From Promethearchaeota archaeon (GTDB lineage: Archaea; Asgardarchaeota; Lokiarchaeia; Sigyniarchaeales; SOKP01): a DNA stretch of 64,000 nt. The stretch lies in the NCBI GenBank assembly GCA_016839705.1, contig JAEOTR010000044.1:1-64000 (forward strand), read 5' to 3'. A model generated the notes under the pieces. That model did no database searches, was not told the origin of the DNA, and was given only the letters and a program-made list of their open reading frames with translations. This document shows positions 4,578 to 12,910 of the stretch, in pieces. The first letter of the stretch is position 1; every line of letters begins with the position of its first letter. Made by a program: the position numbers and the translations under genes.

Positions 4578-5888
4578 ATGAATATTATGGGATTTAGAGA
4601 ATATATTAATCAAATTGACAAGGAAGGATTACTCAGAAAGGTAGATCTTGAAGTTTCTAAAAAATTAGAAATTGCAGGAATTTTAAAGGAAACTGAACCC
4701 ACACCAGTAATGTTTACCAATGTAAAGGAATCTGATTTCCGTGTTGTAGGCAATGTTTTCTGTACAAAGGGTGTTATTGCCTCATATTTTGGTGTAACTC
4801 CTGCAGAACTTATCCCTATGCTTTCAAAAGCGATTGATGAGCGTTCTGAGCCAGAAATTGTATCTAATGCACCATGTCAAGAAATAATAGAACCAAATGT
4901 GGATCTAGAAAAGATTCCTATTTTATTTCATTGTGATAAAGATGGTGGGAATTATATCAGTTCTGCGGTTGTTGTCACAAGAGATCCAGATTATGGACAA
5001 AATTTAGATTTCCATCGAGCTATGCAATATTCCAAGGATAAATTTGCCACACGAATAGTCAAGGGTCGTCATTTCGATAAATTTTTAGAAAAAAATAGAG
5101 AGGTAGAGGTGGCCTTTTGCATAGGAAATACCCCTAACATTCTGATTGCAGGAGCTACTTCTGTAGACATTGGTGTTGATGAATTAACCATTGCCAATGC
5201 TCTTGAGCCAATTAAAGTTGTAAAAGCTAAATCCGTTGATCTTATAATCCCTGCAGAAGCAGAGTTTATACTAGAAGGAAAAGTATATTTTGAAGAGAGA
5301 CATTCAGAAGGTCCTTTTGTTGATCTTACAGAGACATATGACACCATTAGGGAAGAACCAATTTTTGAAGTGAAAAAAATCACTCATAGAAAGGACGCAA
5401 TATGGCAAGCCTTATTACCAGGAGCGTTAGAACATAAAATATTAATGGGAATGCCTCGAGAACCCACAATTTTCACTAAAGTAAATGCAACAGGAGTAAA
5501 GTGTTTGGATGTAAATATTAGTCCAGGAGGATCATCTTGGTTGCACGCGATAGTTCAAATTGATAAAAAAACAGAGGAAGATGGGAAAAAAGCAATAGGC
5601 GGGACCTTTGCTGGCCATACAAGCTGTAAGCATGTTTTCATTGTTGATAAAGATATTGATATCTATGATCCTTTATCTGTAGAGTGGGCGATGGCAACTC
5701 GATTTCAAGGTGATACTAGGATGATTGTTAAAGATAAAGAACCCGGTAGTAGTTTAGATCCAAGCGCAGAACCGGGCACGAAGATGACCACTAAAATTGG
5801 TTTTGATTTAACTAAGCCATTGGTTGTAAAAGGTAAAAGTTTTGATATAGCAGAATTCCCGAAAGTAGATCTAAACAAATATTTTTAA
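4578..5888 (+). CDS. UbiD-family prFMN decarboxylase, probable anhydromevalonate-phosphate decarboxylase
   Basis: EGPFVD, VEWAMATRFQ, SSLDPS motifs; next to aconitase-X pair in MVA cluster. Confidence 0.88.
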   Translation: MNIMGFREYINQIDKEGLLRKVDLEVSKKLEIAGILKETEPTPVMFTNVKESDFRVVGNVFCTKGVIASYFGVTPAELIPMLSKAIDERSEPEIVSNAPCQEIIEPNVDLEKIPILFHCDKDGGNYISSAVVVTRDPDYGQNLDFHRAMQYSKDKFATRIVKGRHFDKFLEKNREVEVAFCIGNTPNILIAGATSVDIGVDELTIANALEPIKVVKAKSVDLIIPAEAEFILEGKVYFEERHSEGPFVDLTETYDTIREEPIFEVKKITHRKDAIWQALLPGALEHKILMGMPREPTIFTKVNATGVKCLDVNISPGGSSWLHAIVQIDKKTEEDGKKAIGGTFAGHTSCKHVFIVDKDIDIYDPLSVEWAMATRFQGDTRMIVKDKEPGSSLDPSAEPGTKMTTKIGFDLTKPLVVKGKSFDIAEFPKVDLNKYF

Positions 5889-5905
5889 TAATAGTGTGAA
5901 CCGAA

Positions 5906-7099
5906 ATGAAATTAACATCAGAAGAGCAAGAAATGTTGGAAGGAAAGTATGGAAAAGCAGCTAAGAAATCTATGGAAATATTAACTACATTAGGTGAAAT
6001 CTTTCATTCAGATTACATGGTTGATGTTTATGGTGTTCAGATAGCAGGAGTTTCATATGCGAATCTTGGGGAAGCGGGATTAGAGTTTTTAAGCGAAATG
6101 GCAGACGATGGAAAAGTAAGAGTTTTAACCACATTAAATCCTGCGGGGATGGATCGTGAAAATTGGAAGGTATTAGGAATTGATGAGGAATTTGCTAAAA
6201 ATCAGAATCGTGCCATTGATGCATTTGCAAAGATGGGAATAATAACTACATGTTCTTGCACTCCCTATCTAATTGGAAATGCTCCACATTTTGGTCAACA
6301 TATAGCATGGGCAGAAAGTAGTGCTGTTTGCTATGCTAACTCAGTTATAGGGGCTCGTACGAATCGTGAAGGTGGTCCAAGTGCATTAGCTTCTGCTCTA
6401 ACTGGAAAAACACCAAACTATGGATATCATTTGGATCAAAATCGTCATGGTGAAGTTTTGATTAATATTACCACTCAAGTTAAAGGGACAGATGAATTTG
6501 GTGTATTAGGAAAAATAATTGGGGATAAATTAGGCGAGTTAGGAAAGAAAATTCCCTATATTACAGGAATTGATTCTGCCACCATGGAAGAGCTAAAATC
6601 ATTTTGTGCTTCAGTTGCTACTTATGGTGGAGTAGCATTATTTCATATGGAAGGAATAACTCCTGAGTATAATAATTATCCTAAACCTACTGAAATAAGC
6701 TTTGACATCGATAGGAAGGATCTCGAAAAAACCCGATCTGAACTTATTGATGAAGATATTGAAATTGATTTTGTGAGTATTGGTTGCCCTCATGCTTCAA
6801 TTCATGAAATCGCGAAGATTGCTAGCTTATTGGATGGAAAAAAAGTAAATAAAGAATTCTGGATTACTACTGCTCGACCTACAAAAAAAATTGCAGACGA
6901 GGCAGGTTATTCTAAAATAATTGAAGATGCTGGTGCAAAATTCGCAGCAGATACTTGCTGTGTGGTAGCTCCAATTAAAGGACGTTTCAAAGGAATTATG
7001 GTAGATTCCGCAAAAGCATGTTATTATGGTAGAGCTAAGAATCAATTTAAAGTTAAAATTGGAACTATTGAAGAATGCATCGAGGAGGCGACATTATGA
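5906..7099 (+). CDS. Aconitase X catalytic subunit (phosphomevalonate dehydratase large subunit)
   Basis: CSCTPY, WAESSAV, ARTNREGG, IGCPH, DTC motifs; context. Confidence 0.92.
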   Translation: MKLTSEEQEMLEGKYGKAAKKSMEILTTLGEIFHSDYMVDVYGVQIAGVSYANLGEAGLEFLSEMADDGKVRVLTTLNPAGMDRENWKVLGIDEEFAKNQNRAIDAFAKMGIITTCSCTPYLIGNAPHFGQHIAWAESSAVCYANSVIGARTNREGGPSALASALTGKTPNYGYHLDQNRHGEVLINITTQVKGTDEFGVLGKIIGDKLGELGKKIPYITGIDSATMEELKSFCASVATYGGVALFHMEGITPEYNNYPKPTEISFDIDRKDLEKTRSELIDEDIEIDFVSIGCPHASIHEIAKIASLLDGKKVNKEFWITTARPTKKIADEAGYSKIIEDAGAKFAADTCCVVAPIKGRFKGIMVDSAKACYYGRAKNQFKVKIGTIEECIEEATL

Positions 7100-7488
7100 A
7101 GTTAGAGGGAAGAAAAATTTATAAGGGAATAGCTGAAGGGGAAGCGATAGTGACTAAAGATGGTATATCATTTTACGGGGGTGTTGATCCCGATACGGGT
7201 AAAGTGGTTGAGGTTGGACACGAACTCGAGGGACAATCGATAACTGGAAAGGTTCTAGTCTTCCCAACTGGTAAAGGTTCGACCGTTGGTTCTTATACAA
7301 TGTATAGAATGAAGAAAAACAATACTGCTCCCGTGGCAATTGTTAATAAACAAATTGATACAATCATAGCAGTTGGGTGTATAATTAGTGAAATTCCATG
7401 TGTTGACAAAATTGACATTGATAACATAAACACAGGACAAATTCTCGTCGTCAATGGTTCAGAAGGAACAATTGAAATAATAGAATAA
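7096..7488 (+). CDS. Aconitase X swivel subunit (phosphomevalonate dehydratase small subunit, DUF126)
   Basis: ISFYGGVDPDTG and GKGSTVGS motifs; ATG at 7096 overlaps upstream TGA (ATGA), GGAGG upstream. Confidence 0.92.
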   Translation: MKLEGRKIYKGIAEGEAIVTKDGISFYGGVDPDTGKVVEVGHELEGQSITGKVLVFPTGKGSTVGSYTMYRMKKNNTAPVAIVNKQIDTIIAVGCIISEIPCVDKIDIDNINTGQILVVNGSEGTIEIIE

Positions 7489-7504
7489 TTACATTTTGAT
7501 TTTA

Positions 7505-8515
7505 ATGAAATCTTCTGCAATTGCTCATTCAAATATAGCATTGATAAAATATTGGGGTCATTGGAACGAAGTATCCCCAGAACTAAATATACCCTTAAAT
7601 GATAGCGTAAGTATGACGAAGTATGGGTTTTCGGAAAATACTCATTTACAGACCCATACAACAATAGAATTTTCAGAAGAATTTAAGGAAAATGAGGTAA
7701 TACTAAATAATAATCTTTTAAAAGGAAGAGACATTGAAAGGATTTTAAAAATCATTAATCCATTAAGAAAAGTAAAACAGATTGATCATAAATTCAAAAT
7801 GGTAAGTTTTAATGACTTTCCTACCCAAGCAGGTTTAGCGTCTTCCGCAGCTGGTTTTGCTGCACTTACGATTGCCGCAGCCAAAGCATTAAATTTGGAT
7901 CTAACCCAAAAAGAATTATCAACATTTGCTAGATTAGGTTCTGGTTCTGCAGCACGCTCAATTCATGGTGGATTTGTATATTGGCGTCAGGGTTTCTCCC
8001 ATGAGACTTCTTATGCCGAACAGATATGCGGTCCAGATCACTTTGACATAAATGCAGTTATTGCTATAATAGATGAAGGAAGAAAGGATGTTACCTCTGA
8101 CATTGGTCATGAATTGGCAAAAACAAGTATATTTAATACCAAACGAGTTAAAAAATCGCATGAACAAGCTGATGAAATCAAAATGGCAATATTAGATGAT
8201 GATTTCAAGAAATTTGGAATGATTGCAGAAAAAAATTGCTTATATATGCATGCTGTAATGATGACATCTGAACCTGCTTTATTCTATTGGAATCCACCTA
8301 CTTTAAGCGTAATAAAGAAAGTGTTACATACACGAAAATCTGAAAATCTAGATTGCTTCTTTACCATCGATGCAGGACCAAATGTACACTGTTTTTGCAG
8401 ACCAGAAAATATTGAATATATTCAAAATATGTTAGAATCCATTGAGGGTATTGAAAAAACTATTCTTGTAAAACCTGCTAAGGATTCTTATACAACAAAT
8501 GAGCATTTATTTTAA
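7505..8515 (+). CDS. mvaD: MVD-family GHMP decarboxylase (mevalonate 5-phosphate or 5-diphosphate decarboxylase)
   Basis: NIALIKYWG, PTQAGLASSAAG, RLGSGSAARS, TIDAGPNVH. Confidence 0.9.
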   Translation: MKSSAIAHSNIALIKYWGHWNEVSPELNIPLNDSVSMTKYGFSENTHLQTHTTIEFSEEFKENEVILNNNLLKGRDIERILKIINPLRKVKQIDHKFKMVSFNDFPTQAGLASSAAGFAALTIAAAKALNLDLTQKELSTFARLGSGSAARSIHGGFVYWRQGFSHETSYAEQICGPDHFDINAVIAIIDEGRKDVTSDIGHELAKTSIFNTKRVKKSHEQADEIKMAILDDDFKKFGMIAEKNCLYMHAVMMTSEPALFYWNPPTLSVIKKVLHTRKSENLDCFFTIDAGPNVHCFCRPENIEYIQNMLESIEGIEKTILVKPAKDSYTTNEHLF

Positions 8516-8657
8516 TTCTACTCATAAATTTTATCTTTCTTTTCCAATTTTTTAAATAAAGTTAAGAATTATTTAACTAAGTTATTGAATAAGATGTTTT
8601 TATGGATTTGAACATTTTCAAATAATAATATATTATATGTGTATATTGGTGAAATAT

Positions 8658-9624
8658 TTGGGTACTGGAAGAGGATATGGAAAGACCATACTTTTTGGCG
8701 AAATTTATTTCCTAATTCAGGAATAAACGTTAACATTTTGTTGTTTATGGTCTTCCAGCAATCGCATCAGCACTAGCATCTTTCACAACCGCAACTGTTA
8801 AAGTATCGGAAGGACATGGATGGACCGTTGATGATCAACGACCAGCAACTATTGGTTACAAAAAAAAGAAATACGACGAGGCAATGCAATCAGTTCAAAA
8901 TGTAATTAATTACCTAAATATAGATTTAAAAAAGCAGAAACTTGAAATAACTTTTTCAGGCAACTTATTTGCTGCAAGCGGGGTTGGGGCATCTGCTGCT
9001 CAATGCACTTCTTTAGCTCGTGCACTTAATGACGAATTTCATCTTAAATTAGATGATGAAAAAATAAATGAAGCGGCTTATGAGGGAGAAAAAGCATACC
9101 ATGGAACACCCTCAGGTATCGATAATACTGCCTCCACGTATGGAGGTTTAATTTGGTTTATAAAAAATTTGGATGGGGGGAAAAATACCATGGATCTTTT
9201 GCAATCACCAAAAAAAATGCCATTAGTTATAGCAAATTCAGGAATAACTGCTTCAACTACAGAGGTAGTTGCTGACGTCCGCCGTTTAAAAGAGGAAAAT
9301 CCAGAAAAATTTAAAGGGATTTTTATTAAATATAAAAGTTTAGCAGAGAAAGCAAAAGATGCTTTACTTAAGGGAGATATCACAACCATTGGTAAATTAA
9401 TGAATCAAAACCACACTTTACTTCAAAATATCACAGTTTCTGGGGAAATTAATGATAAATTGGTGGATATATCTATAAAGAACGGAGCAATCGGTGCTAA
9501 AATGACAGGAACAGGAAGAGGAGGATTAACTATAGCTTTAACCGAAAATGAGGAAATTCAAGAAAAAATTGCTAATGCTATAGAAAATGAAGGATATGAT
9601 GTATGGAAAAGTATGATAGGATGA
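8658..9624 (+). CDS. mvk: Mevalonate kinase, two exons (8658-8702 + 8734-9624), 311 aa after splicing
   Basis: TTG start 5 nt after GGTGA; exon 1 MGTGRGYGKTILFGE joins exon 2 HFVVYGLPAIAS; later SGVGASAA, HGTPSGIDN, GAKMTGTGRGG. Confidence 0.92.
8703..8733 (+). other. 31-nt archaeal bulge-helix-bulge (BHB) intron in mvk
   Basis: Central 4-bp helix GGCG(8697-8700)/CGTT(8728-8731), 3-nt bulges AAA(8701-8703) and AAC(8732-8734), intron stem TTTATT/AATAAA plus TCCT/AGGA; cutting after the 2nd nt of each bulge gives GAA|CAT in frame. Confidence 0.85.
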
Positions 9625-9637
9625 GTGCGACATAATT

Positions 9638-10450
9638 TTGAGAAATAAAAATGATATTATTCTGTTAAAATTAGGTGGAAGTTTATTAACAGATAAAAAT
9701 AAACCCTTTTCTCTTAGAGAAGATGTTATTAAAATTTCAATTCAACAATTAATTAGTGCTAATGAAAAGGTAATTTTAATTCATGGAGGTGGCTCCTTTG
9801 GTCATCCTTTGGCAAAAAAATACAGTATTTTAGAAGGTTTAGATGCATCTATTCAAAACCAAATTCTTGGCTTAACCAAAACCCATCAAGCAATGACTAA
9901 ATTAAATTCTCATTTAGTAAAACTGTTTTTAGAGCAAAATTATCCAACTTTATCAATTCAACCTTCCAGTATCTTCATGAAGGATTCAGAAAAGATCATA
10001 ACCACATCTATTGATATAATTGAAACTAGCTTAGATCTCAATATTATGCCAATTTTATATGGTGATATTATTCTAGATAAGCAAGGTTCTTTCTCAATTC
10101 TCTCAGGAGATCAGCTAATTTTAGAGTTATGTAAGTATTTAACACGTTATCATATTTCAAAAGTTATTTTTACAATGGAAACTGACGGAATATATGTGAA
10201 TGATGATCAAAGTAGTGAAAATTGTATATTAGCTACTGAATGTTATTCTAATGATCTGGAACGTCTAAAATTAGCAAACTTAGGACAAAAAATAGATGTT
10301 ACCGGAGGTATTCAAGGTAAATTTAATGTTATTAAACAAATATGTGATTATAATATACCCGTACAATTAATAAATGGATTAAAGGATGATTATATTTACA
10401 AATCATTAAAAAATCAAAAAATAGAGTGTACAAATATTTTAATTAGGTGA
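9638..10450 (+). CDS. ipk: Isopentenyl phosphate kinase
   Basis: KLGGSLLTDK, HGGGSFGH, SGD, DVTGGI. Confidence 0.93.
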   Translation: MRNKNDIILLKLGGSLLTDKNKPFSLREDVIKISIQQLISANEKVILIHGGGSFGHPLAKKYSILEGLDASIQNQILGLTKTHQAMTKLNSHLVKLFLEQNYPTLSIQPSSIFMKDSEKIITTSIDIIETSLDLNIMPILYGDIILDKQGSFSILSGDQLILELCKYLTRYHISKVIFTMETDGIYVNDDQSSENCILATECYSNDLERLKLANLGQKIDVTGGIQGKFNVIKQICDYNIPVQLINGLKDDYIYKSLKNQKIECTNILIR

Positions 10451-10462
10451 TAATTTGGATTT

Positions 10463-11587
10463 ATGACAACTAGTAATCGTAAGGATAAGAAAATACCTGC
10501 TAAAAATCAATCTAAAAAAATAATGGAAAGAAAGATCGAACATCTCAAAATTCCTTTAGAGCATGACGTACAACATTCTCAAAATTATTTTAAAGATATT
10601 AAGCTAATCCATCATCCAATCCCAGATTTTGATTTCGAGGATATTGATCTCTCCATTCAATTTTTTAATAAAAAGGTGTCCGCGCCAATATGTATTTCCG
10701 CAATTACAGGAGGTCATCCAGTTTCACAAGAACTTAATGAGATTTTAGCTAAAGCTGCTGAAGAAGAAGAAATAATTATGAGTGTAGGGAGTCAGCGTGC
10801 TGGTATTGAAGATCGTACTTTGTTAGATTCCTTTAAGATCACACGTGAAGTGGCACCTCACACTCCAATTATAGGAAATATTGGAATAGGTCAGGTAAGT
10901 GATCCTAATTTTGAAATTAAGGATTTTAATGAATGTATCGAAATGATAAAGGCTGACGTCATGGCAATTCATTTAAACATTTTACATGAATTGGTTCAAG
11001 ATAAAGGAGATATATCCTATAAGCTTTTCAGGGATAATTTCAAGAAAATTCGTGAAAAACATAAAATCCCAATAATAGCAAAAGAAGTTGGAACTGGTTT
11101 TAACCCAGATTTAGCTTTACTACTTGATAAGCTTGGTTTTGATGGATTTGATATTGGGGGAACAGGGGGAACTAGCTTTGCTGCTATAGAATCTAAGCGT
11201 AATAACTTCGACAATCAAAAATACTCCCGAGATCCTGCTGATGTGTTTAAAGAATGGGGGATCCCTACTCCTGTCAGTATTGTATATGTCAGAAATGTAT
11301 CTCAGAAATTAATAATTGCCACTGGTGGTTTAAGAACAGGAATTGATATAGCAAAATCGATTGTTTTAGGCGCTGATGTCGGAGGGTTTGCTTATAAATT
11401 TCTCCAATCTGCATGGCAAGATAGAAAGCAAAAATCAATTTTTAATACAGTTAAAGAAATAAGAACATTAAAAAATGAATTACAGACCTGTCTATGGTTA
11501 ATGAATCAGGAAAGCATTACTAACTTAAAAGGTAAAAGAGATAAGTGTGTTGTTCTAGGGGACCTATATAGATGGCTAAACCAATAA
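10463..11587 (+). CDS. fni: Type 2 (FMN) isopentenyl-diphosphate delta-isomerase
   Basis: RKIEH, AITGG, GSQR, KEVGTG, GGTSFAAIE, WGIPT. Confidence 0.95.
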   Translation: MTTSNRKDKKIPAKNQSKKIMERKIEHLKIPLEHDVQHSQNYFKDIKLIHHPIPDFDFEDIDLSIQFFNKKVSAPICISAITGGHPVSQELNEILAKAAEEEEIIMSVGSQRAGIEDRTLLDSFKITREVAPHTPIIGNIGIGQVSDPNFEIKDFNECIEMIKADVMAIHLNILHELVQDKGDISYKLFRDNFKKIREKHKIPIIAKEVGTGFNPDLALLLDKLGFDGFDIGGTGGTSFAAIESKRNNFDNQKYSRDPADVFKEWGIPTPVSIVYVRNVSQKLIIATGGLRTGIDIAKSIVLGADVGGFAYKFLQSAWQDRKQKSIFNTVKEIRTLKNELQTCLWLMNQESITNLKGKRDKCVVLGDLYRWLNQ

Positions 11588-11597
11588 ATCCGTGTTT

Positions 11598-11821
11598 TTA
11601 ATAGTTCTTATCATAAACTTTATTTACTAACTGGCAACCTCGATTATAATTATCTGAGAAAATACATCTTTTCTTAATATCGTTCTTTTTATTCGAATAT
11701 TTCATGCATCCCCAACACTGCCCTTTAGCTAAACTAATTTTTTTTTACAGTTATTTTCTCTTACCTCTTCACAAATCTTCAGGGCAAAATCTTCAGGAAT
11801 TGGGTTTTTATTTTCTTTCAA
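11598..11821 (-). pseudogene. Small Cys-rich protein (~74 aa) broken by a 1-nt frameshift in an A9 run
   Basis: TTG at 11821 after GAGG: MKENKNPIPEDFALKICEEVRENNCKKK, then shifted frame ISLAKGQCWGCMKYSNKKNDIKKRCIFSDNYNRGCQLVNKVYDKNY*; A9 at 11738-11746. Confidence 0.6.
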
Positions 11822-11924
11822 ATCTTCCTCACTTTGCTAGCTTTTTCAATAAAAAAGCAATAGATTATATAAATAAGTATCATAGTCCAATTCTTATTTA
11901 TTTAACAAGAAATTTATTATCTTA

Positions 11925-12314
11925 TTATTGTTCTGGATTATCCTCTAATGCGTCTTCAATTTTCTCTACAAACTGTGAAAAGGCTCCCGTTTGACCCTGA
12001 TAATTTTCTAATTCCTTAGAATGGAGCTTTAAGAATTTTTTTGATATTTTTACCAATTCTCGATTTACTTGTTTTTGATTGAATTGTTTTGATGAGTTAG
12101 CAACAAATAATAGATCACTTTTTTTTATTATTGTGAATCTCATATTGTTTAATTCAAAATTAGAGAGACCTCCATCGGCTAATTGTTCGGAGAAACTATT
12201 CAATGCACTCATCATTGCTCCAAATAATTGAGGTGCTACAGATTCTTTAAATGGTCTATGAAAAACAACTATTCCTGATTTATGCAGAATCCAAACATCT
12301 TGGAGTACTTTCAA
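11925..12314 (-). CDS. Stand-alone longin/roadblock-like protein
   Basis: VWILHKSGIVVFHR...LFGAMMSALNSF pattern typical of Asgard longin-like proteins; resembles C-termini of 48236 and 49551 ORFs. Confidence 0.7.
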   Translation of the reverse strand: MKVLQDVWILHKSGIVVFHRPFKESVAPQLFGAMMSALNSFSEQLADGGLSNFELNNMRFTIIKKSDLLFVANSSKQFNQKQVNRELVKISKKFLKLHSKELENYQGQTGAFSQFVEKIEDALEDNPEQ

Positions 12315-12364
12315 TGTAAATCCCTTTATTATATGTTCTATTATTAAAAATTAGTATTCCTTAA

Positions 12365-12910
12365 TTATTCTCCCCATCTCTTTATATTAATTGCAATTCC
12401 CGCTTGATCGAGTATTCTTCCAATTGTATGGTTAACGATATCATCTACGTTCGTGGGTTTATGGTAAAATGAGGGTACTGGCGGAAATATTACAACACCA
12501 AGTCTGGTTAGCTTTAACATATTTTCAAGATGAATCGCATTGAGCGGAGTTTCTCTAACAACAAGAATAAGTTTTCTTCTTTCTTTAATCATAACATCTG
12601 CAACTCTGCTAATTAAATTATCAGAATAACCATTAGCTATTGCTGCTAAAGTTTTCATTGAACAAGGAATCACAACCATTTTATCAACCATATGCGATCC
12701 ACTTGCTGGGGCAGCAGTTAAATCATTAACTTCATAATTCTTAGTTGCTAATTTACGAACACCTTCGATTGCATAATCCGTTTCAGTATTTATTATAATT
12801 TCAGCTTTTTCAGAGATTATTAATTCTGTATCAATTTCTTGCTTTTTTAATTCTTCAAGAAGCTTAATTCCTAAGATAGCACCACTTGCACCTGTTATAG
12901 CAACTAGCAT
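12365..12910 (-). CDS. ubiX: Flavin prenyltransferase
   Basis: VAITGASG, PASGS, PCSMKTL, RETPL, FYHKP. Confidence 0.95.
   Translation of the reverse strand: MLVAITGASGAILGIKLLEELKKQEIDTELIISEKAEIIINTETDYAIEGVRKLATKNYEVNDLTAAPASGSHMVDKMVVIPCSMKTLAAIANGYSDNLISRVADVMIKERRKLILVVRETPLNAIHLENMLKLTRLGVVIFPPVPSFYHKPTNVDDIVNHTIGRILDQAGIAINIKRWGE

What the first reader, a model, noticed from the sequence alone, without database searches (positions are those of the whole stretch)
8658..8760. A tRNA-endonuclease-type (BHB) intron interrupts the mevalonate kinase mRNA
Seen: the track ORF (8884) lacks the kinase N-terminus. That N-terminus lies upstream in another frame, separated by exactly 31 nt (8703-8733, ATTTATTTCCTAATTCAGGAATAAACGTTAA) inserted between E and H of the conserved GKxILFGEH motif. 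The junctions fold as bulge-helix-bulge: GGCG/CGUU 4-bp central helix (two G-U pairs), 3-nt bulges AAA and AAC, an intron hairpin UUUAUU-UCCU/AGGA-AUAAA, and an exon-exon stem AAGACCAUA(8682-8690)/UAUGGUCUU(8746-8754). Known: the archaeal splicing endonuclease EndA cuts after the 2nd nucleotide of each bulge. Doing so here gives GAA|CAU, restoring the frame and a 311-aa kinase. Unspliced RNA stops at TAA 8724-8726 after 22 codons. BHB introns in archaeal mRNAs are rare; crenarchaeal cbf5 is the classic case. Inference: an Asgard archaeon needs splicing to express a core lipid-synthesis enzyme, a possible post-transcriptional control point conceptually like HAC1/XBP1 non-spliceosomal splicing.
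Basis: partly seen in the sequence, partly recalled or inferred. Interest (0 to 1): 0.95.

Follow-up and report, generated by a model that had tools for sequence, protein, structure and literature searches.

The report
tRNA-type mini-intron splits Asgard mevalonate kinase
The only mevalonate kinase gene of this Asgard (Promethearchaeota) archaeon is broken inside a conserved motif by a 31-base insert shaped like a tRNA intron, and comparison with 71 related copies indicates the mRNA must be cut and rejoined before this membrane-lipid enzyme can be made, which the papers I could search confirm for the coding part of only one archaeal gene (cbf5).

Summary
Observation confirmed. Removing 8703-8733 joins a 15-codon exon (TTG 8658) to a 296-codon exon, giving a stop-free 311-aa mevalonate kinase, the genome's only full copy. 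Of 72 close homologues, 36 carry the insert at exactly GE|H (33 x 31 nt, 3 x 30 nt, all with an in-frame stop) and 36 lack it precisely. The hairpin and central helix show compensatory changes. Exon 2 is under equal purifying selection with or without the insert (dN/dS 0.12 vs 0.10). Synonymous sites in the pairing exon flanks are constrained only where the insert is present. Frameshifting, hopping, decay and assembly error do not fit. The motif is a relaxed BHB: the outer exon helix is 1 bp, the outer central pair is G-U or G.A, and a competing helix exists. The genome encodes a broad-specificity EndA alpha subunit and RtcB; beta was not found. Other genes of this genome carry similar inserts (two verified in relatives). 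Best reading: EndA/RtcB-spliced mRNA intron (0.93). No RNA data were available, so splicing is inferred. The HAC1-like control idea is unsupported. The scan reported this same intron earlier in other genomes.

The parts
8648..8652 (+). GGTGA ribosome-binding-site-like motif ahead of the TTG start
   Evidence: same motif and spacing before TTG in relatives with the same gene order
8658..8702 (+). mvk exon 1: TTG start, 15 codons, carries the Lys and Gly-Glu of the N-terminal GKxILFGEH motif
   Evidence: collinear with intron-less orthologues
8682..8690 (+). 5' arm of the distal 9-bp exon-exon stem (pairs with 8746-8754)
   Evidence: 92% of cells paired in 32 distinct loci; pair probability 0.91; synonymous codons constrained only in intron-bearing loci
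8696..8700 (+). U8696 (single closing pair with A8735) and the exon strand GGCG of the 4-bp central helix
   Evidence: Phe codon TTT in 36/36 and Gly codon GGC in 35/36 intron-bearing loci, against 13/36 and 5/36 intron-less
8701..8703 (+). 5' three-base bulge; predicted cut between 8702 and 8703
   Evidence: cut position equals the junction defined by intron-less orthologues; base 8703 varies freely (A/T/G) among relatives
8703..8733 (+). 31-nt intron: hairpin 8704-8713 / 8719-8727 with a 5-nt loop, intron strand of the central helix 8728-8731, stops at 8724-8726 and 8731-8733
8732..8734 (+). 3' three-base bulge; predicted cut between 8733 and 8734
   Evidence: first bulge A invariant in 33/33; last intron base varies T/A/G/C
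8734..9624 (+). mvk exon 2, 296 codons from His to stop
   Evidence: TIGR00549 mevalonate kinase 217 bits, cut-off 163, matching from profile position 11 on
8746..8754 (+). 3' arm of the distal exon-exon stem
   Evidence: Gly GGT 32/36 and Leu CTT 33/36 in intron-bearing loci, against 5/36 and 6/36

Best explanation
The 31 nt are a real intron in mevalonate kinase pre-mRNA, removed by the archaeal tRNA-splicing pathway. The transcript folds into a relaxed bulge-helix-bulge. EndA, of the broad-specificity type with the L1/CSL loop, cuts after the second base of each bulge, and RtcB joins GAA to CAU. The 9-bp exon-exon stem further out probably stands in for the weak inner exon helix and holds the two exon ends together for ligation. 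Without splicing, translation ends after 22 codons. The intron was most likely gained once, early in this Promethearchaeota lineage, and lost precisely several times. It is one of several such mini-introns in this genome. SHOWN: the insert, its exact boundaries, conservation, covariation, selection on the protein and on the pairing codons, EndA alpha and RtcB genes. INFERRED: the cleavage and ligation themselves, the role of the distal stem, and the single-gain history.
For: 36 of 72 close homologues have the insert at the same codon boundary and 36 lack it to the base. Structure counts on 32 distinct loci: 87% of cells paired, 7 pairs with changes on both sides (1/500 shuffles), 26 such cells (0/500); slid controls 36-43% paired. 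One locus has a compensatory C-G to U-A change in the central helix, which uses a synonymous exon base (L022). Exon-2 dN/dS is 0.117 with and 0.104 without the intron; G000 against relatives 0.08-0.11. Synonymous divergence at codons -7..+6 is 0.33 with the intron and 0.76 without, while far from the junction it is 0.62 and 0.64. Only full mvk copy in the genome, inside a mevalonate-pathway cluster. EndA alpha has the catalytic Tyr/His/Lys and a Lys aligned with K44 of the crenarchaeal specificity loop. RtcB is intact. A scan that knew nothing of mvk re-found it and at least six further inserts of 27-30 nt; five restore textbook motifs when removed, and the sixth matches intron-less orthologues.
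Against: No spliced RNA, circular intron or peptide was seen. The motif is imperfect: the inner exon helix is 1 bp and the outer central pair is G.A in 22 of 36 loci. RNAalifold on its own prefers a competing helix without covariation, and mean pair probabilities are 0.38 for the central helix and 0.36 for the competitor. The EndA beta paralogue, present in 22 of 25 congeners together with alpha, was not found in this 93%-complete assembly. Only 5 phylogenetically independent pairs are available on strong branches, so the codon contrasts agree in direction (about 4-5 of 5 for five of seven traits) but do not reach p < 0.05. Related sequences can beat the shuffle control without structure.
Confidence: 0.93

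Rival explanations
1. Translational recoding: the ribosome frameshifts or hops over the hairpin (as in T4 gene 60) and the RNA is never cut.
For: A hairpin and an in-frame stop follow the take-off point. In many relatives the exon-2 frame is open through the insert, so a +1 shift would give a kinase with a short insertion.
Against: In this genome the exon-2 frame has stops inside the insert, one directly before His and downstream of the exon-1-frame stop, so no single frameshift works. Three loci have 30-nt in-frame inserts with stops, which need no shift at all. The landing codon would be TAA, AAT, TAT, AAA or TAG, never a match to take-off GAA. Recoding does not explain two 3-nt bulges spaced by a 4-bp helix at both junctions.
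Confidence: 0.02
2. Broken gene or truncated enzyme: the insert inactivates mvk, or the ORF from ATG 8884 is the real protein.
For: The DNA frame is broken and an internal ATG gives 246 aa. A second GHMP kinase (25% identity, contig C92) exists.
Against: dN/dS about 0.1 in both exons of intron-bearing loci. No other lesion in any of the 36 loci. Exon 1 and codons 16-65 are conserved although they lie outside the 8884 ORF. The short ORF lacks the N-terminal motif found in solved mevalonate kinases.
Confidence: 0.015
3. The insert is removed, but not by EndA/RtcB on RNA: another nuclease, or excision at DNA level in part of the population.
For: The motif is relaxed, EndA beta was not found here, and intron-less relatives live in the same sediments (loose ends at 8732).
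Against: Both junctions fall on the EndA cut positions. The intron-less contigs have different synonymous codons, so they are other lineages. No DNA with intron-lineage codons and a joined junction was found in 167 loci or in the metagenome collection. The insert has no terminal repeats or coding capacity.
Confidence: 0.03
4. Assembly artefact.
For: The genome is a metagenome bin with 6.8% contamination.
Against: 35 other distinct loci carry homologous, diverged inserts; contigs from three studies span it without gaps.
Confidence: 0.005

Closest known systems
cbf5 (pseudouridine synthase) pre-mRNA intron of Desulfurococcales and Sulfolobales (Watanabe 2002; Yoshinari 2006; Yokobori 2009, PMC2738675)
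   Same: Short intron in a coding sequence, unconventional BHB, cuts after the second bulge base, placed in a conserved motif, patchy gain and loss among relatives, hetero-oligomeric EndA.
   Different: Other phylum (Asgard, Promethearchaeota) and other gene (a core isoprenoid enzyme). The intron lies between codons, not inside the catalytic Asp codon. It is one of several in the genome. cbf5 splicing was shown by experiment; this was not.
BHB intron in the 5' UTR of Haloferax volcanii HVO_1309 (Schwarz 2020, PMC7714728)
   Same: mRNA substrate of the splicing endonuclease, short (46 nt) intron.
   Different: That intron is untranslated and does not break a reading frame; this one makes the protein depend on splicing.
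Non-canonical tRNA introns of Asgard archaea (Valentin-Alvarado 2024, PMC11291895; bioRxiv 10.64898/2026.10.13.758758)
   Same: Same superphylum, same motif and presumed enzyme, repeated gains.
   Different: [quoted passage not shown]
HAC1/XBP1 non-spliceosomal splicing (own knowledge)
   Same: Short frame-breaking intron; ligation by a tRNA ligase (RtcB for XBP1).
   Different: Cut by the stress-activated Ire1 at two separate stem-loops, not by EndA at a BHB. No regulatory signal is shown here.

Membership tests
EndA-spliced (BHB) archaeal intron | 4-bp central helix joining exon and intron strands | tested here: met
   GGCG/CGUU here. Inner three pairs kept in 32/32 distinct loci with one compensatory change. 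The outer pair is G-U (14) or G.A (22), so it is relaxed in most relatives.
EndA-spliced (BHB) archaeal intron | Two 3-nt bulges on opposite strands, cut after the second base of each | tested here: met
   Predicted cuts equal the junction of 36 intron-less orthologues; first and last intron bases vary freely.
EndA-spliced (BHB) archaeal intron | Intron-side helix h' | tested here: met
   9 pairs, 6 with changes on both sides, 83% of cells paired.
Canonical hBHBh' motif | Exon-side helix h of at least 2 bp adjoining the bulge | tested here: not met
   One invariant U-A pair, then a U-rich internal loop, then a 9-bp stem. The motif is filed as relaxed (HBh'-like), not canonical.
EndA-spliced (BHB) archaeal intron | Host has an EndA able to cut relaxed motifs, and an RtcB ligase | tested here: inconclusive
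   Alpha subunit with catalytic triad and L1/CSL Lys and RtcB are present. Beta was not found in this 93%-complete bin but occurs with alpha in 22 of 25 congeners.
EndA-spliced (BHB) archaeal intron | Spliced product and excised (circular) intron exist; EndA cleaves the RNA | not testable with these tools
   No RNA holder listed; needs transcript data or an in vitro assay.
Mevalonate kinase (TIGR00549) | Score above the equivalog cut-off and intact N-terminal motif after joining | tested here: met
   Exon 2 alone 217 bits against 163; an intron-less orthologue 234; motif aligns with solved mevalonate kinases.
Programmed ribosomal frameshift | One shift reaches an open downstream frame in all homologues | tested here: not met
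   Stops in both frames in this genome; inserts of 30 and 31 nt.
Translational bypass (T4 gene 60 type) | Matched take-off and landing codons with a stop next to take-off | tested here: not met
   GAA against variable TAA/AAT/TAT/AAA/TAG; the stop is usually seven codons away.
Regulated non-spliceosomal splicing (HAC1/XBP1-like) | Splicing rate changes with a signal | not testable with these tools
   No expression data.

The most novel reading that the evidence does not exclude
The mvk intron is a regulated switch, not only a tolerated insert. The weak outer central pair (never G-C in 36 loci), the competing exon-exon helix and the conserved early stop keep splicing incomplete, so that mevalonate kinase output, and with it membrane-lipid synthesis, follows EndA activity or translation rate. 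It would be part of a genome-wide layer of mRNA splicing in the archaeal relatives of eukaryotes.
Probability: 0.12. Interest if true: 0.92.

Novelty: new variant of a known kind. Interest (0 to 1): 0.76.

Why it matters
In the papers I could search, EndA splicing inside an archaeal coding sequence is confirmed for cbf5 only. Yokobori 2009 says introns in other protein genes were predicted but not confirmed. A conserved, frame-breaking intron in the sole mevalonate kinase, plus several more in the same genome, means Promethearchaeota need tRNA-type splicing for core metabolism. It also means gene callers truncate or miss such proteins. It gives a testable system for how short introns arise, persist in conserved motifs and are lost in the lineage closest to eukaryotes: a 90-nt RNA and a two-subunit enzyme are enough for the assay.

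Tried and rejected
RNA evidence: no RNA holder listed, which says nothing about expression. Two scans of metagenome contigs for a joined junction with intron-lineage codons found nothing; a combined spliced/unspliced pattern was over the gap limit, so there is no positive control for these scans. Cut register shifted by one base (which would give GDH in some relatives) rejected: no central helix forms. In-frame ATG 8637 as start rejected in favour of TTG 8658, which has the conserved spacing to the GGTGA motif. Unconstrained consensus folding did not recover the BHB. Independent-pair tests of codon traits had only 5 pairs and cannot reach significance. The careful tree did not finish; the quick tree was used and the root is not inferred. 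The genome-wide scan gave 126 hits, most probably chance; no shuffled control was run and the first version timed out, so no count of introns is claimed. ARAGORN and a T-arm census recovered too few tRNAs to compare the genome's own tRNA BHBs. The joined protein has no reference, so family searches used exon 2 and an intron-less orthologue. Six literature searches found no report of mRNA BHB introns in Asgard archaea; the library lacks most subscription journals.

Full report
1. Observation. The sequence at 8658-8760 is as described. TTG 8658 opens 15 codons ending in ILFGE at 8702. The next 31 nt shift the frame and stop it at TAA 8724-8726 after 22 codons. CAT 8734 begins a 296-codon frame that is itself closed upstream by TAA 8731-8733. 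Removing 8703-8733 gives 311 residues without a stop; only three equivalent slides of the excision give GEH. The region folds better than all 200 shuffles (z = -3.26). Exon 2 scores above the TIGR00549 mevalonate kinase cut-off and starts at profile position 11, so the missing N-terminus is exon 1. The gene lies between a mevalonate-type decarboxylase and isopentenyl phosphate kinase in a mevalonate-pathway cluster and is the only full copy in the genome. Record titles of the nearest homologues are mostly Promethearchaeota.

2. Relatives. From two searches I obtained 92 distinct loci, 72 of them at least 65% identical. Thirty-six have an insert at the same codon boundary (33 of 31 nt, 3 of 30 nt) and 36 read GE-H without a base missing or added; none of the 20 more distant loci has one. 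All 36 inserts put a stop in the exon-1 frame. On a quick maximum-likelihood tree of the joined proteins the insert is scattered: at least 5 changes are forced by strong branches, and it is present in deep side branches. Because the inserts are homologous in length and sequence, one early gain with repeated precise loss is the simplest history. The root is not inferred, and exchange of the 5' segment between lineages is not excluded. Contigs from three independent studies span the insert without gaps.

3. Structure. On the 33 loci with 31 nt (alignment A1), the named structure has 87% of cells paired, 7 pairs with changes on both sides (1 of 500 shuffles) and 26 such cells (0 of 500); slid controls are 36-43% paired. 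The tool warns that relatedness alone can beat shuffles for the paired fraction, much less for the pair counts. The three inner pairs of the central helix are kept in every locus, with a C-G to U-A swap in L022. The two intron bases that fall in bulges next to the cuts vary freely. The motif is relaxed. The exon helix next to the 3' bulge is one invariant U-A pair. The outer central pair is G-U in 14 loci, G.A in 22 and never G-C. RNAalifold alone prefers a competing helix between the end of exon 1 and the start of exon 2, which shows no covariation; pair probabilities are 0.38 against 0.36 on average and 0.51 against 0.41 here. The distal 9-bp exon stem is the most stable element (0.91).

4. 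Selection. Exon-2 dN/dS is 0.117 in intron-bearing and 0.104 in intron-less loci, so the interrupted gene is not decaying. Synonymous divergence in codons -7 to +6 is 0.33 with the intron and 0.76 without, while away from the junction it is 0.62 and 0.64. The constrained codons are those that pair: Gly GGC 35/36 against 5/36, Thr ACY 36/36 against 8/36, Gly GGT 32/36 against 5/36, Leu CTT 33/36 against 6/36. The five independent contrasts agree in direction but are too few for significance.

5. Machinery. The genome encodes a 197-aa EndA whose best solved relatives are crenarchaeal-type alpha subunits. It has the catalytic Tyr, His and Lys, and its Lys55 aligns with Lys44 of the specificity loop. 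Kaneta 2018 (PMC5829648) ties this loop to cleavage of relaxed motifs and finds it in Asgard EndA. RtcB is intact. The second EndA paralogue occurs with the first in 22 of 25 congeners but was not found in this 93%-complete bin.

6. Not alone in the genome. A motif scan for frame-restoring BHB inserts re-found mvk and ranked several 27-30-nt inserts near the top. Their removal restores the RNase HII, thioredoxin, IscU, EF-2-paralogue and Rab-like GTPase motifs (motif identity from my own knowledge). I checked two candidates in relatives. An insert of about 30 nt sits at the same site of RNase HII in 22 of 23 congener loci (the other is masked). The insert in an unnamed gene on C56 is shared with one congener and absent precisely in 15. 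The scan had no shuffled control, so I give no total.

7. How it works. Most likely (0.93) EndA cuts after 8702 and 8733 and RtcB ligates GAA to CAU, with the distal exon stem clamping the ends; unspliced RNA yields a 22-residue peptide. Cleavage, ligation and the clamp role are inferred. Hopping fails for lack of matched codons. Decay and assembly error are contradicted by sections 2 and 4.

8. Known systems and novelty. It works like, and meets the testable features of, the cbf5 mRNA intron, except for the canonical exon helix. Schwarz 2020 (PMC7714728) lists cbf5 as the only earlier mRNA case and adds a 5' UTR intron. Asgard papers describe tRNA introns only. I rate it a new variant of a known kind. 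The scan's own notes report this mvk intron in other genomes and similar introns in many other genes. One note mentions RNA support for a different gene, which I could not check. I formed my reading before opening these notes and do not count them as evidence.

9. Regulation. The HAC1/XBP1 comparison is an analogy. Loss in half of the relatives and the spread over unrelated genes favour a constitutively removed intron that persists because only an exact deletion is viable inside a conserved motif. Three features keep a switch possible: the weak outer pair, the competing helix, and the first base of the stop at intron position 22, invariant in 33/33 even where its partner no longer pairs. I put this at 0.12.

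10. Verdict. Observation confirmed; interpretation supported; novelty: new variant of a known kind; interest 0.76. The missing step is a spliced read or an in vitro cut.

Noticed in passing
G000 C25:55280 (+), L115/L120: 30-nt BHB-type insert with in-frame stop in RNase HII just after the DEAG motif; an insert of about 30 nt is at the same site in 22 of 23 congener loci, so it looks fixed in the genus.
   Followed up: yes
G000 C56:61216 (-), L113/L144: 30-nt BHB-type insert in a conserved gene without Pfam match; shared with G001, precisely absent in 15 congeners. Three other congeners (L160, L161, L164) have different inserts of about 27-30 nt a few bases further on, perhaps independent gains.
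   Followed up: partly
G000 C49:124158 (+), C85:74326 (+), C82:11187 (+), C82:13897 (-): 27-30-nt BHB-type inserts whose removal restores thioredoxin, IscU, EF-2-paralogue and Rab-like GTPase motifs; found by my scan, not checked in relatives.
   Followed up: partly
L033, L035, L036, L039, L040, L044, L049, L050, L054 (mvk 5' end): Nine loci have ACG, directly after the upstream gene's stop, where others have ATG, GTG or TTG; L064 has CTG. This suggests non-canonical start codons for mvk, with and without the intron.
   Followed up: no
L034:2456-3388 against PDB: The best solved match, 2HFS (from memory, Leishmania major mevalonate kinase), has E = 2e-75, far better than the next entries (about 1e-28); this Asgard kinase may belong to the same clade as the trypanosomatid enzyme.
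   Followed up: no
window 4578-12910: The cluster has both the UbiD/aconitase-X/UbiX set and a diphosphomevalonate-decarboxylase-family gene (7496-8515). That gene lies in the DNA held upstream of mvk in 11 of 36 intron-bearing and 0 of 36 intron-less loci, so it probably arrived after the intron.
   Followed up: partly
G000 whole genome: EndA beta subunit not found although 22 of 25 congeners have both paralogues; few tRNAs are recovered and several look interrupted (C49:6190 +, C73:57694 -, C76:33607 -).
   Followed up: partly
window 57779 (-): A 41-nt hairpin passed the BHB scan filter; bulges and length are unlike the other inserts, probably chance.
   Followed up: no
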